The notes under the pieces: model-generated
The model's input: the letters and a program-made list of their open reading frames with translations, nothing else
What the model was told of the DNA's origin: nothing
The model's database searches: none
Part shown: piece after piece, positions 3,128 to 22,158 of the stretch
Numbering within the stretch: the stretch's first letter is position 1
Layout: every line of letters begins with the position of its first letter
Source of the DNA: a virus
Lineage: Duplodnaviria > Heunggongvirae > Uroviricota > Caudoviricetes
DNA: 64,000 nt
Direction: 5' to 3' (one strand)
Virus record (IMG/VR): IMGVR_UViG_2541047802_000007
Position numbers and translations under genes: made by a program

Positions 3128-3360
3128 TAGTGGATCTCCTGCGCTTCGTTCTGGATTGCTTCAGCAGTCACACGCAGCAGTTCTGCCGCTTCGACGTGGT
3201 TTAGCTGGCGGGATGTGATATGACACGCCAGGCTATCAAGGCGAGCTGCCATTGCTTCAGCCCTTGCCCGGCGTTCTTCCAGACGAGCCTCTGTCAGTAA
3301 AATATTAAGCCCTGCATCATCCGGTCCGGTTTTAGTCGTGAGGGTTTCAATATTACGCAT
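3127..3360 (-). CDS. Hypothetical phage protein
   Basis: ORF track; mirror of 26778..27011. Confidence 0.4.
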   Translation of the reverse strand: MRNIETLTTKTGPDDAGLNILLTEARLEERRARAEAMAARLDSLACHITSRQLNHVEAAELLRVTAEAIQNEAQEIH

Positions 3361-3427
3361 AATCAATTCTCCTGAATTTAGATAAAGGGATGCCCGGCGG
3401 GTTTACGCCATTAATTTCATTAGTTGC

Positions 3428-3769: not shown

Positions 3770-3791
3770 AATTCATATCCCCAAAACGCAA

Positions 3792-4016
3792 CTATCGTTC
3801 TTTGTTCTTACGGTAACGTTCAAGAGGAGATACATTTTTTCGTATCGTCTCTTTAACCTGCTCTCCCCGTAAAAACGTCCCATCCCTTAGCGTGAAAAAG
3901 TAACTGCCATCGCCCGACAACGACGGATAACAACAGAGCAAATCATCTTCAGGTACTGAATAACTCTCCCCTCTGTAACGAAACTGATAAACCACTTCAC
4001 TTTCCGCTGCATACAT
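3792..4016 (-). CDS. Hypothetical small phage protein
   Basis: ORF track 74 aa; overlaps neighbouring ORF in another frame. Confidence 0.3.
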   Translation of the reverse strand: MYAAESEVVYQFRYRGESYSVPEDDLLCCYPSLSGDGSYFFTLRDGTFLRGEQVKETIRKNVSPLERYRKNKER

Positions 4017-4183
4017 TTTGACTTTCTCCGTTTCCTCGTGGTCAATTCAGACAGCAATTCATCTTGTGAATGACATGGATGCCAGCGTTTACCATCCTCA
4101 CCCATGATCCAGCCGTGACCGTAGTGCATTGCCGGGCTTTGTTTTACCAGCAGCGATGCAAATGATGGTTCTTTCGTCAGCAT
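3887..4183 (-). CDS. Hypothetical small phage protein
   Basis: ORF with RBS-like gaggtg before internal ATG in right-arm copy. Confidence 0.3.
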   Translation of the reverse strand: MLTKEPSFASLLVKQSPAMHYGHGWIMGEDGKRWHPCHSQDELLSELTTRKRRKSKCMQRKVKWFISFVTEGRVIQYLKMICSVVIRRCRAMAVTFSR

Positions 4184-4190
4184 AAGCACC

Positions 4191-4700
4191 TCACAGCAAA
4201 CCGAATGAAGCACCGAGGCCAGTCACGGTATCAACTGCACTCACCATCGCAGGATTAGCCTGTAAACGGGCCTGCAATGAAACAGCCGCCAGCGCCATCA
4301 GTCGTGTTACAGAGTTAATGCTGCTGATAGCATCACGACGACCGGCACTAGTTTTTACATCACCAGATACCGCACCTGCTGCAACACGCCCGATCTCTGC
4401 AGTTGCGCTCATGACGTAATGCGGCAGTTTCTCTTTTGCCACCTCATTAATCGGTACACATGGCAGACAATGAATCTGTGCCAGAAAACCATCTACCAGC
4501 GTTGAATCTTCAGTCAGATCGGTAAGCAGCCAGATTTCTGGTGCGGTTAATAAATGAGGCTGAGCTGGGTTCAGCTTGTTCCGCAGAATCTGCACATTCA
4601 TGCCTGCACGTTCTGCCAGTTGCACCAGGTTGTGACGCAGTGCAAAAGCCCTACAGGCTTCATCGAAATGCGGATGTTTGGAAATCTTGTAATCAAACAT
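4191..4700 (-). CDS. cII: CII-like phage regulatory protein (186 family)
   Basis: 169 aa, position directly after apl in the early operon; mirror of 25438..25947. Confidence 0.65.
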
Positions 4701-4732
4701 GGTGCCCCCTTAGAAAGTTCCCATAATTGAAC

Positions 4733-4975
4733 TTACTTACCAACAATGACGCGGAAGTTGGAATGACCGAGGGATTCACGGACCTGATCAGTTTTGTACA
4801 TCAGATAACGAAGGCTTACGCGGCCTTTATTTTTTTCTTTCTTGACCATGTACTTAGCAAGTTGACCATGGTGAATTTTTTGGTAAACAGAGCCACGGGA
4901 AATGCCCTCCCACTCTGCGAACTCTGCAGGCGTAGCCATCTCTTTTGGTACACGAATTGAAATATCAGTACTCAT
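4733..4975 (-). CDS. apl: Apl/Cox-like small HTH excisionase-repressor
   Basis: 80 aa, first gene of rightward early operon opposite cI. Confidence 0.55.
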   Translation of the reverse strand: MSTDISIRVPKEMATPAEFAEWEGISRGSVYQKIHHGQLAKYMVKKEKNKGRVSLRYLMYKTDQVRESLGHSNFRVIVGK

Positions 4976-5096
4976 AGTGCAGTATCTCTTACTTTGTGTG
5001 CGTGTTAGTTCGTTTTAGCTCGTCTCTTTAACTCTCACATCAAGAGACACGAAGACATTACGATCTTGATTCAAGATTGTCAAATGGAGATTACCA
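4976..5096. promoter_or_regulatory. cI / apl switch region (divergent early promoters and operators)
   Basis: 121-bp intergenic region between divergent cI and apl with short inverted repeats (atcttgattcaagat). Confidence 0.4.
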
Positions 5097-5729
5097 ATGT
5101 TAAACATCAGAATGGGTTCCGATACGGGAGGTAAGGCAGCTATTGAGAGGCTGCTTGAGGCTTATGGATTCACAACTAAGCAGGCATTAAGCGAGCACCT
5201 GAATGTCTCAAAAAGTACTATGGCAAACAGAGTGTTACGTGACAGTTTTCCTGCTGACTGGATAATTCAGTGTGCACTAGAAACCGGTGTTTCGTTACTT
5301 TGGTTAGCCACTGGACAGGGAAGCATGAAAGAAGGATACGAGTCTGAGAAAAGATCTCATAACGAGAACAAACAAGCAATTAAACCGTTATCCAAACTCA
5401 TAACTCCATCTATTCCTAAAGGAACCTTGGAAAATGGACAACTCAGTATTGATGAAGAGATTTTCCTAGACCACAGCATATTACCTGCAGATTATGAAGA
5501 ATCGATGTTCTTAGAAACCCCTACTGATTGTTATCTCATCGATAAATCAGTTAAACAAGTCAGCAATGGATTCTGGCTTATCAATATTGATGGAATGATT
5601 ATTATTGCAAAAATCATGCGGATTCCCGGCAATAAGATTGTAGTAAATCAAGATGAAGCGTCTTTCGAGTGCTCTGCCGATGATGTGGAAGTTATTGGGC
5701 GTGCAGTCAAAGTAATAAAGAGTATCTAA
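5097..5729 (+). CDS. cI: CI-type immunity repressor
   Basis: 210 aa, N-terminal HTH-like region, adjacent to int and opposite apl. Confidence 0.7.
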   Translation: MLNIRMGSDTGGKAAIERLLEAYGFTTKQALSEHLNVSKSTMANRVLRDSFPADWIIQCALETGVSLLWLATGQGSMKEGYESEKRSHNENKQAIKPLSKLITPSIPKGTLENGQLSIDEEIFLDHSILPADYEESMFLETPTDCYLIDKSVKQVSNGFWLINIDGMIIIAKIMRIPGNKIVVNQDEASFECSADDVEVIGRAVKVIKSI

Positions 5730-5731
5730 AC

Positions 5732-6751
5732 ATGACTGTCAGAAAACAGCCAAACGGTAAATGGTTGTGCGAGTGCTATCCCAATGGACGCAATGGCAAG
5801 CGCGTGCGTAAGCAATTTGCTACGAAAGGCGAAGCCATTGCTTTTGAAAGCTTCACAATGGAAGAAGTGAACAAAAAACCATGGCTGGGGGAAAAGGAAG
5901 ATCGGCGACACCTATCAGAATTAATTGAGCAGTGGTATTCCCTGTATGGTCAAACACTCGCAGACCCCAAGCGCCTCATAGCGAAACTTAGAATTATCTG
6001 TAATGGTCTAGGCGATCCCATCGCTTCAGAACTGACAGCCGGTGACTTTACGAAATACCGCGAAGCACGGTTAAAAGGTGAAGTACGAAATGAAGATGGC
6101 ACGTTTATGTCGCCCGTTAAGCCCCGCACGGTAAACCTTGAACAGCGCAATCTATCATCTGTTTTTGGTACACTGAAAAAGCTGGGCCACTGGTCAGCCC
6201 CCAACCCGCTTGCTGGGCTGCCAACATTTAAAATTGCTGAGAGTGAATTGGCGTTCCTGACCCCGGAAGAAATTAAACGTCTGCTGGATGCCTGCGCCGA
6301 TTCTCAAAGCTCCAGCCTGCTTTTGATTGCAAAAATATGCCTGGCCACCGGCGCACGCTGGAGCGAAGCCGAAAACCTGCAGAGTCATCAGGTATCAAAA
6401 TACCGTATCACTTATACCAAGACCAAAGGCAAGAAAAACCGAACTGTGCCTATTTCTAAGGATTTATATGAAGAACTGCCTAAGAATAGGGGGAAGTTAT
6501 TCACCCCATGCAGAAAAGCCTTTGAGCGTGCAGTAAAGCGAGCCGGTTTAGAACTACCAGAAGGCCAATGTACCCATGTTCTGCGCCATACATTTGCCAG
6601 TCATTTTATGATGAACGGTGGAAATATACTGGTACTGCGCGATATTCTTGGACATGCCGATATAAAAATGACGATGATTTACGCTCATTTTTCCCCAGAT
6701 CATCTTGAAGATGCAGTAACTAAAAACCCATTAGCAACCTTGATGGATTAA
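5732..6751 (+). CDS. int: Tyrosine integrase (P2/186 family)
   Basis: 339 aa; C-terminal HxLRHT...Y catalytic region (VLRHTFASH, MIYAHF). Confidence 0.9.
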   Translation: MTVRKQPNGKWLCECYPNGRNGKRVRKQFATKGEAIAFESFTMEEVNKKPWLGEKEDRRHLSELIEQWYSLYGQTLADPKRLIAKLRIICNGLGDPIASELTAGDFTKYREARLKGEVRNEDGTFMSPVKPRTVNLEQRNLSSVFGTLKKLGHWSAPNPLAGLPTFKIAESELAFLTPEEIKRLLDACADSQSSSLLLIAKICLATGARWSEAENLQSHQVSKYRITYTKTKGKKNRTVPISKDLYEELPKNRGKLFTPCRKAFERAVKRAGLELPEGQCTHVLRHTFASHFMMNGGNILVLRDILGHADIKMTMIYAHFSPDHLEDAVTKNPLATLMD

Positions 6752-6755
6752 GCAC

Positions 6756-7979
6756 ATGCGCAACATTATCGAATTAGAACAGATATCGGAAGAACTAAAA
6801 AAACATGAACTATTGCAACCCCCATTCATTGCCGAGGGAAAACTAATTTCTGACTTTTCTAAGAGAGTCGAGTGCTATTTAGAATTAATTGACTCCATTA
6901 GAAATAAATATCCTGACAACGAGATAATTAAACAAGTAAAGATTCGCACAAAATCAATAATATATTTATCTGATAAAATAATAGAAACTCTTAAGCTATT
7001 TTTAATAGGAAATGTTAAAGAAGCTTATAAAAAATTCGATTTGGCAATTACCAAGTCATCAATGCATACTCATCTTTATAAGATGACTGTTCCTCTAACT
7101 AAATTATGCAACCCACACACCCCTTTATTTCGCGTAAGGAAAAGTGAGTGCATCCTAAAACAAAGAGAAGAATTATTTCATATACCATTTAAAAATAGAC
7201 ATTTAGTTAGCGCACAAAGATTTTCTGTATCCGGTCTTCCATGTTTATATCTTGGAACATCAATATTTGTATGTTGGCAAGAAATGGGAAAACCTGACTT
7301 TGATAAACTTTACATATCTTCCTTCATATCCGATAAAGAAAATTCAAATATAAGAATTTTAGATCTTGGGTACAATTTAACATCTGCACTTCGTACAAAA
7401 CCGGGAGATCTTTGGTATTCATTCGAACAAGGTTCAGATGATGATTACGATCTAAATAATGATAATTTCATGGATCAAATTAATGATAAAATTTCAAAGT
7501 TGATTGCATGGCCTTTAGTCCTTGCATGTAACTATACAAAAGATAATGAAAACGCAAGTTTTAATAAAGAATACATAATACCAAACCTATTAATGCAATG
7601 GATTAGTAGTGACAGAAACAAAAATATATCAGGGATATCGTATCGATCAACAAAGATATTAAACCAAAAAGATAGCGATATTGGGATTAATGTAATTATC
7701 CCCCCAAAAATAGAAAACATAGTTGAAACCAATGATACCCACTGTCCTGTTTTAAAAAAAATATTTAGAGTTACAAACCCTGTTTCCTGGACTGTGTTTA
7801 GTACACTAGAAGCCACCCCCTATCTATACAAAAATAATTTTAATTTTTCGACCTATAATCCCGCAAAAGGATGGATTGAAGACTTTGATGAATCCCTTGT
7901 TGAACATTATGAAAATACCACTTTTAGAAAAGTTGAACTCCTTATTCATCAAATGATGAAGTATGAATATTTAAAATAA
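6756..7979 (+). CDS. AT-rich cargo protein with RES-domain-like motif
   Basis: 407 aa; QRFSVSGLPCLYLGTSIFVCWQE resembles RES Arg-Glu-Ser signature; sits between int and att. Confidence 0.45.
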   Translation: MRNIIELEQISEELKKHELLQPPFIAEGKLISDFSKRVECYLELIDSIRNKYPDNEIIKQVKIRTKSIIYLSDKIIETLKLFLIGNVKEAYKKFDLAITKSSMHTHLYKMTVPLTKLCNPHTPLFRVRKSECILKQREELFHIPFKNRHLVSAQRFSVSGLPCLYLGTSIFVCWQEMGKPDFDKLYISSFISDKENSNIRILDLGYNLTSALRTKPGDLWYSFEQGSDDDYDLNNDNFMDQINDKISKLIAWPLVLACNYTKDNENASFNKEYIIPNLLMQWISSDRNKNISGISYRSTKILNQKDSDIGINVIIPPKIENIVETNDTHCPVLKKIFRVTNPVSWTVFSTLEATPYLYKNNFNFSTYNPAKGWIEDFDESLVEHYENTTFRKVELLIHQMMKYEYLK

Positions 7980-8095
7980 GAGTGGCGGCATAATGGCGGC
8001 AAAGAGTTAAAAACACATAAAACAAGGTAATACATCGTAAACTTAAGTGATTGAAAATTAACATAAATAGTTGTTTTGCAACATGTTATAATGGT

Positions 8096-8140
8096 ATGTA
8101 GGAATTTCGGACGCGGGTTCAACTCCCGCCAGCTCCACCA
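8096..8140 (+). other. ssrA: ssrA (tmRNA) 3'-end fragment ending CCA = prophage att core
   Basis: atgtaggaatttcggacgcgggttcaactcccgccagctccacca matches tmRNA 3' end; upstream tmRNA body absent. Confidence 0.8.
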
Positions 8141-8267
8141 ATCATGATTGGACGGTGTAAGGACAACACCAACAAAAACAGGAAGTTAGAAGTCTCAGCA
8201 GGACACCGACCAGACGGTGAGGAGACATAAAAGGATACGCAAAGGAGCCGCGGCTCCGAAGTGAAAT

Positions 8268-8293
8268 GAAAGCCCGCTGATGCGGGCTTTTTT
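8268..8293 (+). terminator. Rho-independent terminator
   Basis: gcccgc-tgat-gcgggc hairpin followed by T6. Confidence 0.5.
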
Positions 8294-8525
8294 GCTTCTT
8301 CTCTTTAGCCTGATTCGACACTCTCAATGCGGCCATAAACAACAACCCACTTTTCTTATACCGTAGCCTGTCCCCCTCTTCCTGCTTTCTAACCATAACA
8401 GATGTGAGCGTTTGCTATGAGCGATATATAGTCATTCGTACCCTCCGATACTAATCATCACAGAAATTAATATATTCATTCCTTACTGAAAAGCTATGAA
8501 GTAGATATATAGGATTGGGGCGCGT

Positions 8526-8723
8526 ATGGCACTGGACAGTTATGCATCTCCGAATATTATTCCGGAGCTAAGACAACCGAATGCCGCAGCAGGTAAGATC
8601 ACGCTAGGGGGGCTGGACAGAATGGCTGTTACGCCCAGTGTGAAGAAAAGAAGGCTAAGTATGGTAGAATTTCCATACGCACAGACCTTGTTATCCGACT
8701 ATACAGCCTGGAAGGCACTATGA
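8526..8723 (+). CDS. Hypothetical small protein, 4-nt overlap with next gene
   Basis: ORF track 65 aa. Confidence 0.3.
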   Translation: MALDSYASPNIIPELRQPNAAAGKITLGGLDRMAVTPSVKKRRLSMVEFPYAQTLLSDYTAWKAL

Positions 8724-9508
8724 CAAATCTACAACTGGAAGAAAGATTTAGGGCGCTTGAGAAAGATTACGATGCGCTCATTTCCACAAAATATACTGCG
8801 CAGAACGTTCTCACTCACACTATGGAAACCTATGTTGATTCTGGTAAATATAAAAACTGGATCGCCAGAGTGAAAAAGTTAATAGAGGACAGCTACGGAA
8901 AAGAGTCTGATTATTACAATGACTTCAATACTGTAAACAGCAGGTGGTCTTCTAATTACAATACACTGATCAAAAGTTATAAACCGTTGTTTGATGCGGC
9001 GAGAGATGATCTTGCGCACTCTGCTGTCAGTACTAATACTCCTCAAGAAGGTTCGCCGCTGAGCCTCGTACTTAATATTCTTAACAGGTTTCCGACCTTT
9101 GTTCGCCAGTTAAAGAGGCGGTACAACGGCCGTGCGCCGCTTGAAGTTAATGATGAGTATGACGTACAGGATTTGATTTATGCACTGCTGACGCTTCATT
9201 TTAATGATATTAGGGCGGAAGAGTATACCCCCAGCTTTGCGGGCGCGGCCTCAAGACAGGACTTTCTTTTGAAAAAAGAGAAAATTGTGATAGAGGTGAA
9301 GAAAACCCGTGAATCTCTGGGAGCGGGTAAAGTTGGTGGAGAGTTGCTTATTGATATGGCGCGCTACCGCGCTCACCAAGACTGCGATACGTTGATCTTG
9401 TTTGTATATGACCCGGATTGCTACATAAATAATCCTTTGGGCGTGAAAACCGATCTGGAATCTAAAGACGCGGAAGGAAAAGTGAAGGTTGTTATTGCGC
9501 AGTTCTGA
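8720..9508 (+). CDS. Hypothetical protein with PD-(D/E)xK-like nuclease motif
   Basis: 262 aa; C-terminal D...IVIEVKK pattern. Confidence 0.45.
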   Translation: MTNLQLEERFRALEKDYDALISTKYTAQNVLTHTMETYVDSGKYKNWIARVKKLIEDSYGKESDYYNDFNTVNSRWSSNYNTLIKSYKPLFDAARDDLAHSAVSTNTPQEGSPLSLVLNILNRFPTFVRQLKRRYNGRAPLEVNDEYDVQDLIYALLTLHFNDIRAEEYTPSFAGAASRQDFLLKKEKIVIEVKKTRESLGAGKVGGELLIDMARYRAHQDCDTLILFVYDPDCYINNPLGVKTDLESKDAEGKVKVVIAQF

Positions 9509-9595
9509 CACGCTTAAGTGTCACCTTACAGGATTAGGTTTGCGGCCGTGCCAGCAGGACGAGCATGAAAAAGGCCGCTGGCACGGCCGGATTTG

Positions 9596-9889
9596 TCATC
9601 TTTGCCAGGTCAAATCAAAATCTACGTGAAAATCCGCAGGCTTAAGCTCGCAACTGCCACCACGCCCAATTAACGACGTTATGTTTACAACGTTTGAACC
9701 TGTTGAGATGGCAAGTTGAGTGTCATCTGTAAACGTGATGATTAGCATTTCAGTCTGATGAACCTGTACTCCAGTTTTCTGAAAACCAATCTGGACAGAT
9801 TTCACCGTTTTCCCAACCATTTCACGGGCTTGATTGATAGAGTAATTAGCTTCAACTTGTAGGTCATTCCTGAACTTGGGTAGTGTCAT
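9596..9889 (-). CDS. Hypothetical small protein
   Basis: ORF track 97 aa. Confidence 0.35.
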   Translation of the reverse strand: MTLPKFRNDLQVEANYSINQAREMVGKTVKSVQIGFQKTGVQVHQTEMLIITFTDDTQLAISTGSNVVNITSLIGRGGSCELKPADFHVDFDLTWQR

Positions 9890-10099
9890 TTTACATCCTC
9901 TTTAGTGAAGTTTTCGCTATTTAAATCAGCAGCATTCCTTTTAAATCACTGGCATGTCAGCAGTGGATAGTCTGAGTGTAACGTCCAGTGAGGGGAATAA
10001 ATATTGGTCAGACTTTGCACAAAAGAGCCAACTATCGCGGGCTCTCTCTCATCATGTGCGAAAATTGACCACAATATGAAATCCAGTTCCATTCCGAAA

Positions 10100-10924
<825 letters not shown>

Positions 10925-11034
10925 TCAATTGACAACTTATAATCCCTACTAGTTAGCATTATGATTTCCAGAGTGAGGAATATAAAAATCTCTGTTTCTG
11001 GCACATAACAGCCCTTAAGATCGTAGCTCGCCAT

Positions 11035-11080
11035 CATGGGGTGTCGGGGGGCGGAGGTTCAAATCCTCTCGTGCCGACCA
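11035..11080 (+). other. tRNA-Pro (proL-like) 3' fragment ending CCA; probable att-site remnant
   Basis: catggggtgtcggggggcggaggttcaaatcctctcgtgccgacca matches 3' portion of tRNA-Pro; 5' half missing. Confidence 0.65.
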
Positions 11081-11092
11081 AAAATCCCTTAA

Positions 11093-11121
11093 GAACCAGC
11101 CTATTATGGCTGGTTTTTTTA
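11093..11121 (+). terminator. Rho-independent terminator after tRNA-Pro fragment
   Basis: aaccagcc-tattatg-gctggtt hairpin then T-run. Confidence 0.55.
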
Positions 11122-11288
11122 TGATTGTTTTTTATGCGGAGAAATACCGGGGAATAATTGGGGTAAAACACCTTTAGGCTATTCACTTAGCCTACCACCA
11201 TCAAAATCTTTCCGAATGTATCCATCTCTTTTTTCTTATGCAGCTAAAACGAAGTCTTGATACTGTTTATTTACACAGATAAGAATAA

Positions 11289-11308
11289 TACTGTCTACAA
11301 ACGCAGTA
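11289..11308. promoter_or_regulatory. LexA-box-like sequence
   Basis: tactgtctacaaacgcagta = CTGT-N8-GCAG, one mismatch from CTGT-N8-ACAG. Confidence 0.35.
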
Positions 11309-11321
11309 CAAAAGAAGTGTT

Positions 11322-11500
11322 ATGCGTATTGAGATCTCCATAGCCAAAGACAAAATGACCAAATGCCAAACGGCGCTGTGGACGCGTTAAAGGAAGAATT
11401 AACCCAACACATTGGCAAGCGTTATGACGATGTGGAGATGATCGTAAAAGCCACCAGCAACGATAGTTTTTCAGTTAGACATACTGCAGATAAAGATTGA
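11322..11500 (+). pseudogene. dinI-like gene disrupted by frameshift
   Basis: [11 protein letters not shown] in one frame, ...[25 protein letters not shown]... in another; both halves DinI-like. Confidence 0.4.
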
Positions 11501-11924
11501 GCTAAAACTTTCGTTCAGGAAACTCTGAATGATACCTGAGAGTCTACTGAAGAGTTGTTTGTTCACTAGTTAGCACGTAGGAAATCATTCAATACTCGCA
11601 CTATCGGAAGTTCACCAGCCAGTCGTAGCACGTCCTTGCAAACGACGTGCCTACGGTTTCAATCACCTCTCACCATCAATTCTATCAATAATAATTAAAC
11701 AGCGCCTAGACAAAATAAATAACAACAAGTCAACAACCTCGACAGGATGCCGATGGGATGATGAAGAGATAAGAAAGAATAACCAGTAAAGCCCTAAAAC
11801 GTCAGCGTTCAGACGCGTTTTTTACTTAATCGGTAACAAATACGTTGTATCATAGCAAAATAAAATGATTGTTCTAAATCAGATTAACTCCTCACTTTTG
11901 TACAATGTCGCTTACAGGTATACC

Positions 11925-13814
11925 ATGAAATCCGAGACGCTAACTGTCCAACAACTTTTTCAAGACCGCCGACAATACTGTGTTCCATTCTATCAACGTG
12001 CCTATGTATGGACTCAGCAAGACCAGTGGTCAGCTCTACTGGAGGATATCCTAGAGAAAGTACAATCCCGGCTCTCGGGTACAAAACCAACTCCCCATTT
12101 CCTTGGTGCGGTTGTACTGGAACCTCAATCAAAAAAAGGATTATTAGGTGTAGATTCCATACATATTATTGATGGTCAGCAACGATTGACCACTCTTCAA
12201 TATGTTCTGGCATCCATCCGATTAGCATTACGTGCTACGGATCTTTCCAGCTTAGAGGCTCTCATTTCGCCTTGCCTGAAAAACTCAAACGAAGACACAA
12301 TGCGAAATAAAGAAGTAGAACGCTTCAAACTGTGGCCAACTTTTCGGGATCAAACTCATTTTATTCAAAGTTTTAATGTTGAAAATATTGACGATCTCCG
12401 GGACGTATTCTCTGATAGTTTCACGCAGCATGGTACGTTGCGTAAGCATTTTAATCACCCGCCATCACTAGAAGCATTATGTTTTTTTACTGAAGCCTTT
12501 ATAAAATGGATTAAAATAGAAAACCACTCACCACAAGAAAATGCTGTAGCTCTAATTGAGGCTGTCTTAACAGATCTGAAACTGGTAAGCATATTTCTCG
12601 AAGCTGAAGATGATGCCCAAATAATTTTTGAAACATTAAATGGGCGAGGGGCGGAACTTCATGCTACGGATCTTATTCGCAACTATATCTTTATGTGCGC
12701 TGAGCATGAAAATATTAATGCTATTGAATTATATGAAAATGAGTGGAAGAGCTTTGAAGATAAATACTGGTCGGAAAAACAACGCCGTGGACGTATTAAT
12801 AAACCACGCATGGAGTGGCTAGTACATGCGACATTGCAATCAGAAAGGCAACGTGAAATTGATCTGTCTCGCCTTTACAATGAGTATCGTGATTATGTAA
12901 GTAAGGACTTGTCTTCACAACGAGCAGATCTGCAAGTAAAGCGCCTCAAACAATATGCATCACAATATAAAGAATTGGTTGATGGTTTTGGCACAACCCC
13001 CATCTCACACTTTGGATATCGCATCGCAGACTATGATGTGACGACACTTTATCCGCTTGCTTTGTTCATTTCGATAGCTAACATCGCTGATGATGAGAAA
13101 GCAGCCATGTATAATGATCTTGTCTCCTACGTAGTACGAAGAGCCGTATGTGGCCTGACGCCAAAGAATTACAACAATGTATTTATGAATGTATTGCGGC
13201 ACTTGGCTAAAACGGAAATTTCCAGTGTTGAGTTACGTAATATCCTCAATAACTTAAATGGCGAAGCCTCACGTTGGCCTGGTGACTCAGAATTTCTCAA
13301 CGCTTGCATCAATGCTCCACTTTATCCTGGCAGGCTCGACGCACCGAAAATGCGCTCAATGTTAACGGAACTTGAAAGAGAACTTTGTCGCCAAGTAAAG
13401 ACAGAAAAGCCTGATGTTCCAAATCTTTCTAATCTCGATATCGATCATCTTATGCCTCAAAGTTGGTATTCCTGTTGGCCTCTCGAAAATGGTCGTATGG
13501 TGACAAATTCAGATGCTACGGTATTGAACCAAATTGTTCTGTCTGGAACCGATCTTACCCCTGAACAGCTACTGGTAAGGAAACGGCAACAAGCGATATC
13601 TACTTTGGGAAATCTAACTTTGCTTAACCTTAGCGTAAACCGTTCTGTTCAGAATGCTGTATTTCTGAAAAAACGTGATGCTCTCATCGTCCACACCAAT
13701 CTACGACTGAACATTCCACTTATAGTTAAGGATAAATGGGATGAGGATGAAATCCTGGAGCGGGGTAAAAAGTTGGGGGAAATTGCATTGAAAGTATGGC
13801 CAAAACACGATTAA
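11925..13814 (+). CDS. GmrSD-like type IV restriction endonuclease (DUF262 + DUF1524)
   Basis: FYQRAYVW and IDGQQR motifs N-terminal; DIDHLMPQSW...GNLTLLNLSVN C-terminal; track start 11865, ATG 11925 preferred. Confidence 0.7.
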   Translation: MKSETLTVQQLFQDRRQYCVPFYQRAYVWTQQDQWSALLEDILEKVQSRLSGTKPTPHFLGAVVLEPQSKKGLLGVDSIHIIDGQQRLTTLQYVLASIRLALRATDLSSLEALISPCLKNSNEDTMRNKEVERFKLWPTFRDQTHFIQSFNVENIDDLRDVFSDSFTQHGTLRKHFNHPPSLEALCFFTEAFIKWIKIENHSPQENAVALIEAVLTDLKLVSIFLEAEDDAQIIFETLNGRGAELHATDLIRNYIFMCAEHENINAIELYENEWKSFEDKYWSEKQRRGRINKPRMEWLVHATLQSERQREIDLSRLYNEYRDYVSKDLSSQRADLQVKRLKQYASQYKELVDGFGTTPISHFGYRIADYDVTTLYPLALFISIANIADDEKAAMYNDLVSYVVRRAVCGLTPKNYNNVFMNVLRHLAKTEISSVELRNILNNLNGEASRWPGDSEFLNACINAPLYPGRLDAPKMRSMLTELERELCRQVKTEKPDVPNLSNLDIDHLMPQSWYSCWPLENGRMVTNSDATVLNQIVLSGTDLTPEQLLVRKRQQAISTLGNLTLLNLSVNRSVQNAVFLKKRDALIVHTNLRLNIPLIVKDKWDEDEILERGKKLGEIALKVWPKHD

Positions 13815-13926
13815 TGCAATTAATAAAATGATTATAGTGGCCTTACATTAGTAAGGCCGCTACTCACTATTAAATACTTTAATTTGCATCAAGAACAGCA
13901 GTGTCAGCCCTAGGTCTCGGACTTTG

Positions 13927-14049
13927 TACCGCTTATCTTGTCTTCAAAAATCAGCTCGCATCCTGCACAGTTCAGCGCATTACGTTGTAGATCTGTGTTC
14001 TGGTCATTTGTTGACACACGTACATAGCCAATAAGCATGGTAGATCTCC
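13927..14049 (-). pseudogene. Pin-like serine invertase, truncated after ~41 codons
   Basis: MLIGYVRVSTNDQNTDLQRNALNCAGCELIFEDKISGTKSE then stop; intact homolog at 56819..57436. Confidence 0.75.
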
Positions 14050-14092
14050 CTGACAAAAGCAGGAATGATGCCATTTGCTCGTTATTTCTGCA

Positions 14093-14118
14093 TTTTCATA
14101 AACGTTGGTTTGGGAGAA
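14093..14118. other. 26-bp invertase crossover site (pix/hix-like), left
   Basis: ttttcataaacgttggtttgggagaa; inverted copy at 16020..16045. Confidence 0.7.
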
Positions 14119-14559
14119 GCGGCAAAACGGAATGTGGGCAACGGGGAAAACCAAATCCCTGATATGTCTTTCTGGACGGTTACTGGTGGCAATGGAAATT
14201 TTGTGATTCGTCAACCTGACGGGCTAATCATTCAGATGGTTACTGTAAGTATAAGCGGCCCAGTGGCGATGAATGGAATGACTGATAATGCTTATGCCAT
14301 CACAGGTTCTAATAAGTCTTATATTGCCACAGCCACATTGCCCTTTGTATTTCCTAATAAGGTGCTGGGCGTTATCCCTCTGGTATCAACAACAGCTTAT
14401 GGTGGTGTATCCAGTAATATTACAGGTTCATACGCGACGGCGGTTTGTTCTTTTGCCGCTGTCAGGGGGAATAATACGATTGTGTTCAAAGTCGACAAAC
14501 CACTGAATGCAGCCTTTCCTTCAGATACCAGCGTCTCAGCGTTAATCATTGGACGGTAA
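14119..14559 (+). CDS. Tail-fibre C-terminal variable segment (Sv type), no own start
   Basis: Open frame runs through crossover site (FINVGLGE); track ORF 14065..14559 has artefactual N-terminus. Confidence 0.6.
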   Translation, partial: AAKRNVGNGENQIPDMSFWTVTGGNGNFVIRQPDGLIIQMVTVSISGPVAMNGMTDNAYAITGSNKSYIATATLPFVFPNKVLGVIPLVSTTAYGGVSSNITGSYATAVCSFAAVRGNNTIVFKVDKPLNAAFPSDTSVSALIIGR

Positions 14560-14561
14560 TA

Positions 14562-15005
14562 ATGAACTCAGTATTCTTTTCACCCGGAAGTAAAAGTTTT
14601 TATCTGCAAGAATTGTTTCCAGAATATGAGGATGCGGGAACGCTTCCTGATGATGTTATTGAAATTACCAGAGAAACATATGAGCAATTTCTTGGTCTGC
14701 ATCCAGAAGGGAAAGAAATTGGCGCTGACAGTTCAGGACGGCCAGTATGGATTAATTCCCCACCCCCTTCAAAAGAGGATGAGGTGTTGACGGCTGAAAT
14801 GAAAAAAATATCTTTGGTTTCAGAAGTCAATACCTACATCAATACCCATCAGTGGCCTGGCAAAGCTGCTATTGGTCGTCTGAAAGGCGAGGAACTGGCG
14901 CAATATAATTCGTGGCTGGATTATCTGGACGCACTGGAACTGGTCGATACTTCCTGTGCGCCAGATATTGAATGGCCTACGCCTCCGGCAGTTCAGGCCA
15001 GATGA
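14562..15005 (+). CDS. Tail fibre assembly chaperone
   Basis: 147 aa directly after Sv; C-terminal DIEWPTPP. Confidence 0.65.
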   Translation: MNSVFFSPGSKSFYLQELFPEYEDAGTLPDDVIEITRETYEQFLGLHPEGKEIGADSSGRPVWINSPPPSKEDEVLTAEMKKISLVSEVNTYINTHQWPGKAAIGRLKGEELAQYNSWLDYLDALELVDTSCAPDIEWPTPPAVQAR

Positions 15006-15579
15006 CATCCGGCGCTGTGCTGGTATTTGTTGCCGTCACCGCGTCAATGTAATCCAGCACAGCGTTAAGCCGGGTTGTTTCTGCCTGCATCAGCTTCCGT
15101 CCGGCCTGTAATTTCAGCTGAATCAGACCGATGGAAGCCATTGCAGCATCAATCAGTGACTGACGCTGTGCTTCTGCCGCGTCTACTGCGGCGCTATGCT
15201 GTGCCTCAGTATCGGTCACCCATTTCTCACCATCCCATTTATCGTATGGCGTTAATGGGGCAATAGTGGTTGTATTTTCGGGGTAATCACCCGGTGCTGT
15301 GATTTGTTTTGATTCTCCCGTTTCGGTGTTATAGACGATTTCACCGCGATGGTCTGGCACATATTCCCATGAATTTAAATTCACAGAACGACAGATAGCA
15401 TAACCCGCCTTATGTATACCTGGTGCATCCAGACAGGAATATGCCGGGATACCAACACCAACGGCAAGATATTCACTTGAAGTGGAAATATATTCCCGAG
15501 TTTCACCATCATAGTTATAAACGGTAATATCCCCTGCCTTTGTAGCAACAAGTCCACTATTTAATATTGCTTTATCCAT
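14977..15579 (-). CDS. Tail fibre assembly chaperone (TfaE-like), near-identical to prophage gpG at 47600..48202
   Basis: 200 aa MDKAILNSGLVATKAGDITVYNYDGETREY...; TAATG overlap with Sv' stop. Confidence 0.75.
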   Translation of the reverse strand: MDKAILNSGLVATKAGDITVYNYDGETREYISTSSEYLAVGVGIPAYSCLDAPGIHKAGYAICRSVNLNSWEYVPDHRGEIVYNTETGESKQITAPGDYPENTTTIAPLTPYDKWDGEKWVTDTEAQHSAAVDAAEAQRQSLIDAAMASIGLIQLKLQAGRKLMQAETTRLNAVLDYIDAVTATNTSTAPDVIWPELPEA

Positions 15580-16019
15580 TATGCTGCTCTCACGATATAG
15601 TTAAATGCAATGTTGCGTGGACGGGTATCGACGGGGTTAACGGCCACTGTACCCGACACGGACTGGTCATTACCGTTGCTAACGGTAATGTTACTACTGG
15701 TTGATCCAATCCCTACTGAATCGGTAAATTTAGCACCTGAGCCGCTCAAAGTTCCCGAGATGATAGCTAGCTCCACATAAAAAGTACCTACAGTTGGCTC
15801 TTGTGTTGACAGCACCGCACGCCTTGAATCAACGCCGCGCCCATCATCCCAGCCACGAATAAACTCACCACGTAAATCAGGCAATTTATTTGTCGGATAA
15901 GCCTTTGCCAGTTCCGGGTATTCTTCAGCAGAAAAAGCCGCACCGTTGCATTTCAGCCAGCCTGTTGGCGGTGTGGCTGAAGGCCATGGAACAGGCACAC
16001 CAACAGGTAATGCAGAGCC
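15579..16019 (-). CDS. Tail-fibre C-terminal variable segment (Sv' type), no own start
   Basis: GEGSALPVGVPVPWPSATPPTGWLKCNGAAF... shares N-part and last 13 aa with gpH C-terminus. Confidence 0.65.
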   Translation of the reverse strand, partial: GSALPVGVPVPWPSATPPTGWLKCNGAAFSAEEYPELAKAYPTNKLPDLRGEFIRGWDDGRGVDSRRAVLSTQEPTVGTFYVELAIISGTLSGSGAKFTDSVGIGSTSSNITVSNGNDQSVSGTVAVNPVDTRPRNIAFNYIVRAA

Positions 16020-16045
16020 TTCTCCCAAACCAACGTTTATGAAAA
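16020..16045. other. 26-bp invertase crossover site, right
   Basis: ttctcccaaaccaacgtttatgaaaa. Confidence 0.7.
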
Positions 16046-16088: not shown

Positions 16089-16211
16089 GGAGATCTACCA
16101 TGCTTATTGGCTATGTACGTGTGTCAACAAATGACCAGAACACAGATCTACAACGTAATGCGCTGAACTGTGCAGGATGCGAGCTGATTTTTGAAGACAA
16201 GATAAGCGGTA
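16089..16211 (+). pseudogene. Pin-like serine invertase, truncated after ~41 codons
   Basis: Same N-terminus as Gin at 56819..57436, then abrupt divergence and stop. Confidence 0.75.
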
Positions 16212-16323
16212 CAAAGTCCGAGACCTAGGGCTGACACTGCTGTTCTTGATGCAAATTAAAGTATTTAATAGTGAGTAGCGGCCTTACTAATGTAAGGCCA
16301 CTATAATCATTTTATTAATTGCA

Positions 16324-18213
16324 TTAATCGTGTTTTGGCCATACTTTCAATGCAATTTCCCCCAACTTTTTACCCCGCTCCAGGATTTCATCCTCATCCC
16401 ATTTATCCTTAACTATAAGTGGAATGTTCAGTCGTAGATTGGTGTGGACGATGAGAGCATCACGTTTTTTCAGAAATACAGCATTCTGAACAGAACGGTT
16501 TACGCTAAGGTTAAGCAAAGTTAGATTTCCCAAAGTAGATATCGCTTGTTGCCGTTTCCTTACCAGTAGCTGTTCAGGGGTAAGATCGGTTCCAGACAGA
16601 ACAATTTGGTTCAATACCGTAGCATCTGAATTTGTCACCATACGACCATTTTCGAGAGGCCAACAGGAATACCAACTTTGAGGCATAAGATGATCGATAT
16701 CGAGATTAGAAAGATTTGGAACATCAGGCTTTTCTGTCTTTACTTGGCGACAAAGTTCTCTTTCAAGTTCCGTTAACATTGAGCGCATTTTCGGTGCGTC
16801 GAGCCTGCCAGGATAAAGTGGAGCATTGATGCAAGCGTTGAGAAATTCTGAGTCACCAGGCCAACGTGAGGCTTCGCCATTTAAGTTATTGAGGATATTA
16901 CGTAACTCAACACTGGAAATTTCCGTTTTAGCCAAGTGCCGCAATACATTCATAAATACATTGTTGTAATTCTTTGGCGTCAGGCCACATACGGCTCTTC
17001 GTACTACGTAGGAGACAAGATCATTATACATGGCTGCTTTCTCATCATCAGCGATGTTAGCTATCGAAATGAACAAAGCAAGCGGATAAAGTGTCGTCAC
17101 ATCATAGTCTGCGATGCGATATCCAAAGTGTGAGATGGGGGTTGTGCCAAAACCATCAACCAATTCTTTATATTGTGATGCATATTGTTTGAGGCGCTTT
17201 ACTTGCAGATCTGCTCGTTGTGAAGACAAGTCCTTACTTACATAATCACGATACTCATTGTAAAGGCGAGACAGATCAATTTCACGTTGCCTTTCTGATT
17301 GCAATGTCGCATGTACTAGCCACTCCATGCGTGGTTTATTAATACGTCCACGGCGTTGTTTTTCCGACCAGTATTTATCTTCAAAGCTCTTCCACTCATT
17401 TTCATATAATTCAATAGCATTAATATTTTCATGCTCAGCGCACATAAAGATATAGTTGCGAATAAGATCCGTAGCATGAAGTTCCGCCCCTCGCCCATTT
17501 AATGTTTCAAAAATTATTTGGGCATCATCTTCAGCTTCGAGAAATATGCTTACCAGTTTCAGATCTGTTAAGACAGCCTCAATTAGAGCTACAGCATTTT
17601 CTTGTGGTGAGTGGTTTTCTATTTTAATCCATTTTATAAAGGCTTCAGTAAAAAAACATAATGCTTCTAGTGATGGCGGGTGATTAAAATGCTTACGCAA
17701 CGTACCATGCTGCGTGAAACTATCAGAGAATACGTCCCGGAGATCGTCAATATTTTCAACATTAAAACTTTGAATAAAATGAGTTTGATCCCGAAAAGTT
17801 GGCCACAGTTTGAAGCGTTCTACTTCTTTATTTCGCATTGTGTCTTCGTTTGAGTTTTTCAGGCAAGGCGAAATGAGAGCCTCTAAGCTGGAAAGATCCG
17901 TAGCACGTAATGCTAATCGGATGGATGCCAGAACATATTGAAGAGTGGTCAATCGTTGCTGACCATCAATAATATGTATGGAATCTACACCTAATAATCC
18001 TTTTTTTGATTGAGGTTCCAGTACAACCGCACCAAGGAAATGGGGAGTTGGTTTTGTACCCGAGAGCCGGGATTGTACTTTCTCTAGGATATCCTCCAGT
18101 AGAGCTGACCACTGGTCTTGCTGAGTCCATACATAGGCACGTTGATAGAATGGAACACAGTATTGTCGGCGGTCTTGAAAAAGTTGTTGGACAGTTAGCG
18201 TCTCGGATTTCAT
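16324..18213 (-). CDS. GmrSD-like type IV restriction endonuclease (DUF262 + DUF1524)
   Basis: Mirror of 11925..13814. Confidence 0.7.
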   Translation of the reverse strand: MKSETLTVQQLFQDRRQYCVPFYQRAYVWTQQDQWSALLEDILEKVQSRLSGTKPTPHFLGAVVLEPQSKKGLLGVDSIHIIDGQQRLTTLQYVLASIRLALRATDLSSLEALISPCLKNSNEDTMRNKEVERFKLWPTFRDQTHFIQSFNVENIDDLRDVFSDSFTQHGTLRKHFNHPPSLEALCFFTEAFIKWIKIENHSPQENAVALIEAVLTDLKLVSIFLEAEDDAQIIFETLNGRGAELHATDLIRNYIFMCAEHENINAIELYENEWKSFEDKYWSEKQRRGRINKPRMEWLVHATLQSERQREIDLSRLYNEYRDYVSKDLSSQRADLQVKRLKQYASQYKELVDGFGTTPISHFGYRIADYDVTTLYPLALFISIANIADDEKAAMYNDLVSYVVRRAVCGLTPKNYNNVFMNVLRHLAKTEISSVELRNILNNLNGEASRWPGDSEFLNACINAPLYPGRLDAPKMRSMLTELERELCRQVKTEKPDVPNLSNLDIDHLMPQSWYSCWPLENGRMVTNSDATVLNQIVLSGTDLTPEQLLVRKRQQAISTLGNLTLLNLSVNRSVQNAVFLKKRDALIVHTNLRLNIPLIVKDKWDEDEILERGKKLGEIALKVWPKHD

Positions 18214-18637
18214 GGTATACCTGTAAGCGACATTGTACAAAAGTGAGGAGTTAATCTGATTTAGAACAATCATTTTATTTTGCTATGATACAACGTATTT
18301 GTTACCGATTAAGTAAAAAACGCGTCTGAACGCTGACGTTTTAGGGCTTTACTGGTTATTCTTTCTTATCTCTTCATCATCCCATCGGCATCCTGTCGAG
18401 GTTGTTGACTTGTTGTTATTTATTTTGTCTAGGCGCTGTTTAATTATTATTGATAGAATTGATGGTGAGAGGTGATTGAAACCGTAGGCACGTCGTTTGC
18501 AAGGACGTGCTACGACTGGCTGGTGAACTTCCGATAGTGCGAGTATTGAATGATTTCCTACGTGCTAACTAGTGAACAAACAACTCTTCAGTAGACTCTC
18601 AGGTATCATTCAGAGTTTCCTGAACGAAAGTTTTAGC

Positions 18638-18816
18638 TCAATCTTTATCTGCAGTATGTCTAACTGAAAAACTATCGTTGCTGGTGGCTTTTACGATCAT
18701 CTCCACATCGTCATAACGCTTGCCAATGTGTTGGGTTAATTCTTCCTTTAACGCGTCCACAGCGCCGTTTGGCATTTGGTCATTTTGTCTTTGGCTATGG
18801 AGATCTCAATACGCAT
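18638..18816 (-). pseudogene. dinI-like gene disrupted by frameshift
   Basis: Mirror of 11322..11500. Confidence 0.4.
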
Positions 18817-19045: not shown

Positions 19046-19057
19046 TTAAGGGATTTT

Positions 19058-19103
19058 TGGTCGGCACGAGAGGATTTGAACCTCCGCCCCCCGACACCCC
19101 ATG
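19058..19103 (-). other. tRNA-Pro 3' fragment (att remnant)
   Basis: Mirror of 11035..11080. Confidence 0.65.
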
Positions 19104-19213: not shown

Positions 19214-20038
<825 letters not shown>

Positions 20039-20629: not shown

Positions 20630-21418
20630 TCAGAACTGCGCAATAACAACCTTCACTTTTCCTTCCGCGTCTTTAGATTCCAGATCGGTTTTCACGCCCA
20701 AAGGATTATTTATGTAGCAATCCGGGTCATATACAAACAAGATCAACGTATCGCAGTCTTGGTGAGCGCGGTAGCGCGCCATATCAATAAGCAACTCTCC
20801 ACCAACTTTACCCGCTCCCAGAGATTCACGGGTTTTCTTCACCTCTATCACAATTTTCTCTTTTTTCAAAAGAAAGTCCTGTCTTGAGGCCGCGCCCGCA
20901 AAGCTGGGGGTATACTCTTCCGCCCTAATATCATTAAAATGAAGCGTCAGCAGTGCATAAATCAAATCCTGTACGTCATACTCATCATTAACTTCAAGCG
21001 GCGCACGGCCGTTGTACCGCCTCTTTAACTGGCGAACAAAGGTCGGAAACCTGTTAAGAATATTAAGTACGAGGCTCAGCGGCGAACCTTCTTGAGGAGT
21101 ATTAGTACTGACAGCAGAGTGCGCAAGATCATCTCTCGCCGCATCAAACAACGGTTTATAACTTTTGATCAGTGTATTGTAATTAGAAGACCACCTGCTG
21201 TTTACAGTATTGAAGTCATTGTAATAATCAGACTCTTTTCCGTAGCTGTCCTCTATTAACTTTTTCACTCTGGCGATCCAGTTTTTATATTTACCAGAAT
21301 CAACATAGGTTTCCATAGTGTGAGTGAGAACGTTCTGCGCAGTATATTTTGTGGAAATGAGCGCATCGTAATCTTTCTCAAGCGCCCTAAATCTTTCTTC
21401 CAGTTGTAGATTTGTCAT
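20630..21418 (-). CDS. Hypothetical protein with PD-(D/E)xK-like motif
   Basis: Mirror of 8720..9508. Confidence 0.45.
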   Translation of the reverse strand: MTNLQLEERFRALEKDYDALISTKYTAQNVLTHTMETYVDSGKYKNWIARVKKLIEDSYGKESDYYNDFNTVNSRWSSNYNTLIKSYKPLFDAARDDLAHSAVSTNTPQEGSPLSLVLNILNRFPTFVRQLKRRYNGRAPLEVNDEYDVQDLIYALLTLHFNDIRAEEYTPSFAGAASRQDFLLKKEKIVIEVKKTRESLGAGKVGGELLIDMARYRAHQDCDTLILFVYDPDCYINNPLGVKTDLESKDAEGKVKVVIAQF

Positions 21419-21997: not shown

Positions 21998-22042
21998 TGG
22001 TGGAGCTGGCGGGAGTTGAACCCGCGTCCGAAATTCCTACAT
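21998..22042 (-). other. ssrA: ssrA 3'-end fragment = prophage att core
   Basis: Revcomp matches tmRNA 3' end ending CCA; 3' end points away from prophage. Confidence 0.8.
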
Positions 22043-22158
22043 ACCATTATAACATGTTGCAAAACAACTATTTATGTTAATTTTCAATCACTTAAGTTTA
22101 CGATGTATTACCTTGTTTTATGTGTTTTTAACTCTTTGCCGCCATTATGCCGCCACTC

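What the first reader, a model, noticed from the sequence alone, without database searches (positions are those of the whole stretch)
16324..18213. GmrSD-like type IV restriction enzyme next to the invertase stub
A single 630-650 aa protein carries an N-terminal DGQQR-type domain and a C-terminal HNH-like domain, the architecture of modification-dependent restriction enzymes. It is AT-rich relative to the phage backbone and sits with a dinI-like pseudogene and a tRNA fragment, a typical decayed defence islet. A second copy lies at 11925..13814 in the mirrored arm.
Basis: partly seen in the sequence, partly recalled or inferred. Interest (0 to 1): 0.55.

Follow-up and report, generated by a model that had tools for sequence, protein, structure and literature searches.

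The report
Known prophage GmrSD restriction enzyme
The gene is an intact copy of an already studied E. coli enzyme (the UTI89 "UT" GmrSD) that cuts the sugar-modified DNA of T-even phages, so it is ordinary; its "second copy" lies in a perfect mirror duplication seen in no other genome, which is probably an assembly artefact.

Summary
16324..18213 (-) is an intact 629-aa ORF; an in-frame ATG at 18273 would give 649 aa. It has a GmrSD_N/DUF262 domain with DGQQR and a GmrSD_C/DUF1524 His-Me nuclease domain with D507, H508 and N522. The dinI pseudogene, the tRNA-Pro 3' fragment, the 42-codon invertase stub, the low GC (0.41 against 0.51-0.57) and the identical copy at 11925..13814 are all present.

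The protein is 100% identical to UTI89 WP_000834402.1, which I take to be UTI89_C2960, the published "UT enzyme". Published work reports that it restricts T2, T6 and RB69 but not T4, and is insensitive to T4 IPI*. Its position just downstream of prophage tail-fibre genes is also published.

The gene occurs at 90% identity or more in 306 of 5,426 complete E. coli genomes. It is cargo at the ssrA-proximal end of a prophage, next to an intact PD-T4-3 nuclease.

The second copy exists only because window 1-14119 is an exact reverse complement of 16019-30137. The mirror is centred on the invertible tail-fibre segment, with junctions inside its recombination sites. No other genome examined has this arrangement. 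It is most likely an assembly fold-back, less likely a real invertase-mediated sister exchange.

The parts
16324..18213 (-). GmrSD CDS (629 aa plus stop), identical to UTI89 WP_000834402.1 (EcoUTI89GmrSD, the 'UT enzyme')
18214..18273 (-). In-frame upstream extension of 20 codons to an alternative ATG. It is probably not translated. The family model and RefSeq both start at 18213.
17446..18192 (-). GmrS part: DUF262/GmrSD_N, the ParB/Srx-like NTPase domain (residues 8-256)
   Evidence: coordinates checked
17953..17967 (-). DGQQR motif (residues 83-87), in the context IIDGQQRLTTL
   Evidence: family motif from PMC4619093
16357..16863 (-). GmrD part: DUF1524/GmrSD_C, the His-Me finger (HNH) nuclease domain (residues 451-619)
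16648..16695 (-). Catalytic residues D507-H508 (16690-16695) and N522 (16648-16650). They correspond to D507/H508/N522 of Eco94GmrSD, whose alanine variants lose endonuclease activity.
   Evidence: PMC4437046
16280..16299 (.). GC-rich hairpin (GGCCTTAC-taat-GTAAGGCC) between the 3' end of gmrSD and the invertase stub. It is likely a bidirectional terminator.
   Evidence: read from the sequence; not called by the consensus scan
16100..16228 (+). Pin/Gin-type serine invertase stub of 42 codons. The sequence diverges from intact invertase genes after about 16221.
16020..16045 (.). Right hix/gix-like recombination site, TTCTCCCAAACC-AA-CGTTTATGAAAA
   Evidence: The comparison with hix and gix sites rests on my own knowledge.
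14120..16018 (.). Invertible tail-fibre segment with two variable fibre ends and two tail-fibre assembly genes. It is the spacer of the mirror duplication. Both orientations occur in natural genomes.
14093..14118 (.). Left recombination site in the window. It is an exact reverse complement of the right site. In natural genomes the outer half differs.
11925..13814 (+). Mirrored second copy of the GmrSD CDS, with an identical product
1..14119 (.). Left arm of the perfect inverted duplication, the reverse complement of 16019-30137. It is cut by the window start.
18599..18816 (-). DinI-like pseudogene with a frameshift and an internal stop
19053..19103 (-). tRNA-Pro 3' fragment (a former att site), followed by a terminator-like hairpin at 19020-19047
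   Evidence: not called by ARAGORN
19232..20038 (+). PD-T4-3, a single-gene GIY-YIG anti-T-even defence. It is intact. The RefSeq start is 19265.
   Evidence: PMC12409345
20249..20542 (+). 97-aa ORF with no family match. It is conserved alongside PD-T4-3.
20630..21418 (-). 262-aa protein with a DpnII-MboI-type PD-(D/E)XK nuclease domain. Its function has not been tested.
21998..22045 (-). ssrA (tmRNA) 3' fragment. It is the att-core duplicate that marks the end of the islet and the start of the tandem P2-like prophage.

Best explanation
The ORF is the gene for EcoUTI89GmrSD, the 'UT enzyme'. This is a single-chain Type IV (modification-dependent) restriction endonuclease of the GmrSD family.

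It is cargo at the far end of a myovirus-type prophage integrated at ssrA. It lies just beyond the invertible tail-fibre segment, where the insertion that brought it cut the pin-type invertase down to 42 codons.

Proposed mechanism:
- The N-terminal DUF262 (ParB/Srx-like) domain, with DGQQR, binds and hydrolyses NTP.
- The C-terminal DUF1524 His-Me finger nuclease (D507-H508...N522) cleaves incoming DNA that carries glycosylated hydroxymethylcytosine.
- The host's own unmodified DNA is spared, so no methyltransferase partner is needed.
- The lysogen is thereby protected from T-even-type phages. The adjacent PD-T4-3 GIY-YIG nuclease acts on an overlapping set that includes T4.

Shown here: the intact ORF, the domains, the motifs, exact identity to the UTI89 protein, and the genomic context. 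Taken from the literature: the restriction spectrum and the catalytic residues. Inferred: the roles of the domains in this particular enzyme, and any complementarity with PD-T4-3.
For: - Pfam GmrSD_N and GmrSD_C both score far above their cut-offs.
- PADLOC mREase_IV scores 1415 bits over the full model.
- The protein is 100% identical to UTI89 WP_000834402.1, and the DNA is 100% identical over 4.58 kb to UTI89, S88, NU14 and IHE3034.
- DGQQR, IDHLMPQ, N522 and the C-terminal W...W motif are present, matching the family motifs of PMC4619093.
- PMC4437046 reports that the UT enzyme is a fused GmrSD, is insensitive to IPI*, restricts T2 and T6 but not T4, is 93% identical to Eco94GmrSD (where D507A, H508A and N522A abolish activity), and is prophage-borne next to tail-fibre genes.
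- PMC6024577 reports that it restricts RB69.
- The same context recurs in every public contig examined.
- The gene is in 306 of 5,426 complete genomes, 147 of them at 99% identity or more.
Against: - No experiment was done on this strain.
- Equating RefSeq WP_000834402.1 with the old locus tag UTI89_C2960 is an inference. It rests on this being the only close Eco94GmrSD-type gene in UTI89 and on its position next to tail-fibre genes.
- Two of the five published consensus motifs match only with a one-residue spacing difference (LGNLTLLNLSVN and NAVFLKKR).
- No convincing promoter was found.
Confidence: 0.95

Rival explanations
1. The two copies are real. The source genome carries a true palindromic duplication of at least 14 kb. 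It would arise when a Gin/Pin-type invertase recombined the left site on one sister chromosome with the right site on the other. That event doubles the defence islet.
For: - Both junctions fall inside the 26-bp hix/gix-like sites, where natural left and right sites share only about 15 bp. That is short for a k-mer mis-join.
- An intact gin lies in the same window (56819-57436).
- The segment is found in both orientations in nature although its own invertase is a stub, so it is flipped in trans.
- Another genome shows a gross rearrangement at these sites.
Against: - 0 of 5,426 complete E. coli genomes have the arrangement, and none of the 32 contigs read that carry the exact protein do.
- Arms that are 100% identical are equally expected from an assembler that walks out of a flipping segment along the same flank twice.
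- From general knowledge, Gin-family invertases strongly disfavour intermolecular reactions.
- The source record could not be found, so neither reads nor coverage could be checked.
Confidence: 0.2
2. The gene is a dead remnant, as 'decayed islet' would suggest: intact-looking but not expressed or not active.
For: - The neighbours include a pin stub, a dinI pseudogene, and tRNA and tmRNA fragments.
- No promoter stood out above shuffled sequence.
- Some genomes carry IS insertions in or beside the gene.
Against: - The 629-codon ORF is uninterrupted and all catalytic motifs are intact.
- The exact protein sequence is listed in 7,944 blocks of the public collection.
- The cloned UTI89 enzyme restricts phages (PMC4437046).
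Confidence: 0.03
3. It belongs to a different DUF262 system: a phosphorothioate-sensing SspE/DndB-type protein, or a BREX-embedded BrxU-type enzyme that needs partner genes.
For: PADLOC also gives SspE hits (E about 1e-16) and Orf5 and HEC-06 hits. DUF262 is shared by all of these.
Against: - The SspE hits cover only the N-terminal 100 or so residues, whereas mREase_IV covers the full length at 1415 bits.
- No ssp, dnd or BREX genes are annotated in the annotated stretches inspected in UTI89, S88 and NZ_CM132301.1 (up to about 46 kb on one side in S88) or in the contigs carrying the same protein.
Confidence: 0.02

Closest known systems
EcoUTI89GmrSD (UTI89_C2960, 'UT enzyme'; RefSeq WP_000834402.1)
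   Same: The 629-aa sequence and the flanking 4.6 kb are identical. The prophage position next to the tail-fibre genes is the same.
   Different: The gene itself does not differ. In this window it appears twice because of the mirror duplication. A P2-like prophage, with a Mu-like insertion in its ogr gene, follows the islet as in S88 rather than as in UTI89.
Eco94GmrSD (E. coli STEC_94C) and EcoCT596GmrSD
   Same: Both are single-chain DUF262 plus DUF1524 enzymes. Eco94GmrSD is also 629 aa and 93% identical, with D507-H508-N522 at the same positions. Both are prophage-borne, and they cut glc-hmC or hmC DNA (PMC4437046).
   Different: Those two enzymes are blocked by T4 IPI* and restrict T4 lacking ip1. 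The UT allele is reported to be insensitive to IPI* and not to restrict T4, with or without IPI. It does restrict T2, T6 and RB69.
BrxU (GmrSD-family enzyme of the pEFER BREX island; solved structure)
   Same: The two-domain architecture is the same, and cleavage of modified DNA is NTP-dependent. [quoted passage not shown]
   Different: The sequences are distant: phmmer against the PDB found only 9jfl_B (E 2e-8) and not BrxU. The gene here is not embedded in a BREX locus.
McrA next to pinE in the e14 element, and com/mom next to gin in Mu
   Same: The slot is the same: DNA-modification or restriction cargo immediately beyond the invertase at the end of a Mu-type tail-fibre module. The Mu case is visible in this window and in related loci. 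The e14 layout is from my own knowledge.
   Different: The proteins are unrelated: McrA is an HNH enzyme that targets 5mC, and Mom is a modification enzyme. Here the cargo insertion destroyed the invertase.

Membership tests
GmrSD family, Type IV restriction enzymes | N-terminal DUF262/GmrSD_N (ParB/Srx-like) domain | tested here: met
   PF03235 scores 118.1 bits against a cut-off of 33.2 and covers model positions 1-199 of 199.
GmrSD family, Type IV restriction enzymes | (I/V)(I/V)DGQQRLTT motif, described as nearly invariant in the family | tested here: met
   IIDGQQRLTTL at residues 81-91. The motif definition is from PMC4619093.
GmrSD family, Type IV restriction enzymes | C-terminal DUF1524/GmrSD_C His-Me finger domain | tested here: met
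   PF07510 scores 72.6 bits against a cut-off of 23 and covers model positions 1-137 of 138.
GmrSD family, Type IV restriction enzymes | Catalytic (E/D)-H...N residues, and the motifs (I/L/V)(E/D)H(I/L/V)xPQ, L(G/A)NLxLLxxxN, NxxFxxKK and W...W | tested here: met
   IDHLMPQ is at 506-512, N522 is present, and the W...W motif is at 605-625, all exact. LGNLTLLNLSVN and NAVFLKKR are present but differ from the written consensus by one residue of spacing.
GmrSD family, Type IV restriction enzymes | Alpha-helical linker of about 200-400 residues between the two domains | tested here: inconclusive
   About 195 residues separate the two Pfam envelopes. No structure was predicted, so helicity was not checked.
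GmrSD family, Type IV restriction enzymes | Modification-dependent cleavage and restriction of hmC or glc-hmC phages | not testable with these tools
   Reported for the identical UTI89 protein in PMC4437046 and PMC6024577.
GmrSD family, Type IV restriction enzymes | Stand-alone enzyme with no cognate methyltransferase | tested here: met
   No methyltransferase lies in the islet, 16229-22045. The Dam gene at 27175-28092 belongs to the P2-like prophage.
BrxU / BREX-associated GmrSD | Embedded in a BREX operon (pglX, brxC and others) | tested here: not met
   The neighbours are tail-fibre genes, a pin stub, a dinI pseudogene and PD-T4-3.
SspE / DndB-type DUF262 proteins | Adjacent phosphorothioation genes, and a full-length match to the SspE models | tested here: not met
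   The SspE models match only about residues 22-142, at E 1e-16 or weaker. No ssp or dnd genes are nearby.
Din-family (Gin/Pin/Hin/Cin) invertible tail-fibre switch, the context of the gene | Inverted 26-bp crossover sites flanking two alternative fibre ends and their assembly genes, and a functional invertase next to them | tested here: inconclusive
   The sites and the gene layout are present, and both orientations occur in nature. The resident invertase is a 42-codon stub, so inversion must depend on an invertase supplied in trans. The enhancer was not examined.

The most novel reading that the evidence does not exclude
The mirror duplication is real. A Gin-type invertase, supplied in trans by the Mu-like prophage in the same genome, recombined the crossover sites of the invertase-less tail-fibre switch between sister chromosomes. 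That produced a palindrome of at least 30 kb which doubles a defence islet (GmrSD, PD-T4-3 and the early region of the P2-like prophage). It would be a natural example of a phase-variation switch driving large palindromic amplification of immunity genes.
Probability: 0.12. Interest if true: 0.45.

Novelty: already known. Interest (0 to 1): 0.1.

Why it matters
For the gene itself it matters little. The enzyme, its motifs, its prophage location beside tail-fibre genes and its phage spectrum are all published. The gene is common in B2-type extraintestinal E. coli such as UTI89, S88, NU14, IHE3034 and APEC strains.

Two side points have some practical value:
- GmrSD(UT) is reported not to restrict T4, and its neighbour PD-T4-3 is reported to act on T2, T4 and T6. 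The two sit side by side in about a hundred complete genomes, and their interplay has not been tested. This is relevant to phage therapy against these lineages.
- The mirrored arm is a warning that invertible segments can produce fold-back structures. It should not be counted as a gene duplication without read-level support.

Tried and rejected
- I looked for the source record through the unique Mu-ogr junction (45-mer at 55,3xx). There was no exact match in genome contigs, viral contigs or metagenome contigs.
- An exact-protein look-up of the Mu-like Mom returned only other insertion sites.
- An exact-protein look-up of GmrSD returned only the normal one-copy context.
- ARAGORN and Rfam at gathering thresholds found nothing in the window. 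The tRNA-Pro and ssrA remnants appeared only with BLAST or relaxed thresholds.
- The promoter and terminator consensus scan around the gene did not exceed shuffled controls.
- The primary paper on the UT enzyme (the reference for its phage spectrum that PMC4437046 cites as ref. 12; recalled from memory as Rifat et al. 2008) could not be read: the PMC id I tried from memory is not held. Its results are therefore cited second-hand through PMC4437046.
- I considered Mu replicative transposition as the cause of the mirror and rejected it. From general knowledge, it duplicates Mu rather than host DNA.
- A short-read k-mer mis-join at the natural inverted repeat seems unlikely, because only about 15 bp are shared. 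A mis-join made through overlaps inside the 1.9-kb segment, in a culture holding both orientations, remains the favoured artefact model.
- I did not run the large homology searches or a structure prediction, because exact identity to a characterised protein made them unnecessary.

Full report
**What is at the coordinates**

The minus strand is open from 18273 to 16324, giving 649 aa. RefSeq uses that start in UTI89 and S88. It is also where the PADLOC family model begins: residues 21-649 match model positions 1-629 of 629.

Pfam gives GmrSD_N (PF03235, 118 bits, cut-off 33.2) over residues 28-276 of the long ORF. It gives GmrSD_C (PF07510, 72.6 bits, cut-off 23) over residues 471-639. PADLOC gives mREase_IV at 1415 bits.

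In 629-aa numbering the protein has these motifs:
- IIDGQQRLTTL at 81-91
- IDHLMPQ at 506-512, which contains D507 and H508
- N522
- the C-terminal W...W motif at 605-625

Two further published motifs are present with a one-residue spacing difference: LGNLTLLNLSVN and NAVFLKKR. The motif definitions come from PMC4619093.

All of these are present:
- GC is 0.412 for the gene and 0.425 for the islet. It is 0.513 for the P2-like prophage as a whole and 0.566 for its structural genes.
- The invertase stub is 42 codons long (16100-16228, MLIGYVRVSTNDQ...GTKSET*) and has a Resolvase N-terminal hit. Its similarity to intact phage invertase genes stops at about 16221.
- The dinI-like pseudogene at about 18599-18816 (-) is frameshifted and has an internal stop.
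- At about 19053-19103 (-) there is a 3' portion of a tRNA-Pro gene. It matches annotated tRNA-Pro genes at 89-94% identity and is followed by a terminator-like hairpin. ARAGORN does not call it as a gene.
- Beyond it lie an intact PD-T4-3 GIY-YIG gene (19232-20038; PADLOC E 8.6e-137), a 97-aa ORF, and a protein with a DpnII-MboI-type nuclease domain (20630-21418; Pfam E 9.5e-49).
- A 3' fragment of ssrA sits at 21998-22045 and marks the end of the islet.

**What it is**

The 629-aa product is identical, residue for residue, to UTI89 WP_000834402.1. The 4.58 kb around it is 100% identical to UTI89, S88, NU14, IHE3034 and many other strains.

UTI89's prophage-borne single-chain GmrSD is the published 'UT enzyme', UTI89_C2960 or EcoUTI89GmrSD. 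PMC4437046 reports the following:
- It is a fused enzyme and is insensitive to the T4 inhibitor IPI*.
- It does not restrict T4, with or without IPI, but does restrict T2, T6 and other T-even-like phages.
- It is 93% identical to the 629-aa Eco94GmrSD, in which D507A, H508A and N522A abolish endonuclease activity.
- These genes lie on prophages immediately downstream of the tail-fibre genes.

PMC6024577 adds that the UTI89 enzyme restricts RB69. PMC4619093 used the UT protein as its reference sequence for the family.

Equating the RefSeq protein with the old locus tag is my inference. It rests on this being the only gene of this type in UTI89 and on its position next to the tail fibres.

**Context and likely history**

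In every natural contig examined the gene order is the same: prophage tail and baseplate genes of the Mu type; the tail-fibre gene; the invertible segment with two alternative fibre ends and two assembly genes; the pin stub; gmrSD; the dinI pseudogene; the tRNA-Pro fragment; PD-T4-3; the 97-aa ORF; the DpnII-MboI-like gene; and ssrA.

The islet is therefore cargo at the ssrA-proximal end of a prophage. The dinI and tRNA-Pro remnant resembles the right end of another, lost prophage. This suggests the islet was built up by successive tandem integrations and decay. The defence genes stayed intact while the scaffolding around them decayed.

In S88 and in this window a P2-like prophage has integrated in tandem at ssrA. 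The slot beyond the invertase also holds com/mom in Mu, which is visible in this window at 55914-56651. From my own knowledge, the same slot holds mcrA in e14.

The gene is found at 90% nucleotide identity or more in 306 of 5,426 complete E. coli genomes, at 99% or more in 147, and always on chromosomes.

**How it most likely works**

This section rests on the literature and on inference; it was not tested here. The DUF262 domain, with DGQQR, binds and hydrolyses NTP. The DUF1524 His-Me finger then cuts DNA that carries glycosylated hydroxymethylcytosine (PMC4619093, PMC4437046). [quoted passage not shown]

No methyltransferase is needed, and none lies in the islet.

PD-T4-3 next door is reported to act on T2, T4 and T6 and on other Tevenvirinae (PMC12409345). 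The two nucleases may therefore cover each other's gaps. That is an untested inference.

**The second copy**

Window 1-14119 is an exact reverse complement of 16019-30137. The left arm is cut by the window edge, so its true length is unknown.

The 1,899-bp spacer is the invertible segment. The junctions lie inside hix/gix-like 26-bp sites. The right site is TTCTCCCAAACC-AA-CGTTTATGAAAA. The natural left site in UTI89 is TCTCGAAAACC-TT-GGTTTGGGAGAA. The two share only about 15 bp in inverted orientation.

Each junction taken alone is natural. The left junction matches the segment orientation of UTI89 and S88. The right junction matches that of IHE3034. Both orientations therefore occur in nature although the resident invertase is a stub, which means the segment is flipped by an invertase supplied in trans.

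The combination with the stub flank on both sides is not found in any of 5,426 complete genomes. It is also absent from the 32 contigs read that carry the exact protein.

The window also holds an intact gin (56819-57436). It belongs to a Mu-like prophage whose right end is inserted in the P2-like ogr gene at 55330/55331. That junction is unique as well and was found in no collection.

I see two readings:
- An assembly fold-back, about 0.8. Reads from a culture holding both orientations were joined through the segment, so the assembler walked out along the same flank twice.
- A real invertase-mediated exchange between sister chromosomes, about 0.2.

Only raw reads or coverage can decide between them.

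**Verdict**

The enzyme is already known and characterised, so interest is low. The only unusual feature is the mirror duplication, and it is unverified.

Noticed in passing
window 1-14119 and 16019-30137; spacer 14120-16018: A perfect inverted duplication of at least 14.1 kb is centred on the invertible tail-fibre segment, with junctions inside the recombination sites. It is absent from all 5,426 complete E. coli genomes searched. It is either an assembly fold-back or an invertase-mediated sister exchange.
   Followed up: partly
window 55331-64000 (junction at 55330/55331): The right end of a Mu-like prophage (a 148-aa ORF, mom, com, intact gin, G segment, tail fibre, baseplate) is inserted inside the ogr gene of the P2-like prophage. 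It is 97% identical to Yersinia phage vB_YpM_3 and to Mu/D108 relatives. The junction was found in no public collection searched.
   Followed up: partly
window 31437-32846 (+), 41712-43412 (-) and 22159-23382 (-): The P2-like prophage carries AT-rich cargo genes: PD-T7-1 (PADLOC E 1.3e-196), an AIPR/AbiU-like gene, and a 407-aa ORF beside the integrase with GC 0.31 and no family match.
   Followed up: partly
window 20249-20542 (+) and 20630-21418 (-): A 97-aa ORF with no family match and a 262-aa protein with a DpnII-MboI-type nuclease domain (also hit by the PADLOC 'Aga_Helical-REase' models) accompany PD-T4-3 in nearly all the contigs examined (8 of the 9 places shown; L007 keeps these two genes but no PD-T4-3 gene was called there). 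They could be untested defence genes.
   Followed up: partly
window 28089-30529 (+): The P2-like replication gene gpA is split into two overlapping ORFs. RefSeq annotates it as frameshifted in S88, so this prophage is probably defective for replication.
   Followed up: no
L003 (NZ_CM132301.1) 10917-13700: In this urinary isolate the same segment has the pin stub on one side. On the other side are a full-length recombinase and P2-type tail genes. This is a natural large rearrangement at these sites.
   Followed up: partly
window 14984-15630 and 15817-16033 against 47119-48195: The tail-fibre collar and assembly genes of the invertible segment are 80-90% identical to the tail-fibre genes of the P2-like prophage 31 kb away. 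That offers a substrate for homologous exchange between the two prophages.
   Followed up: no
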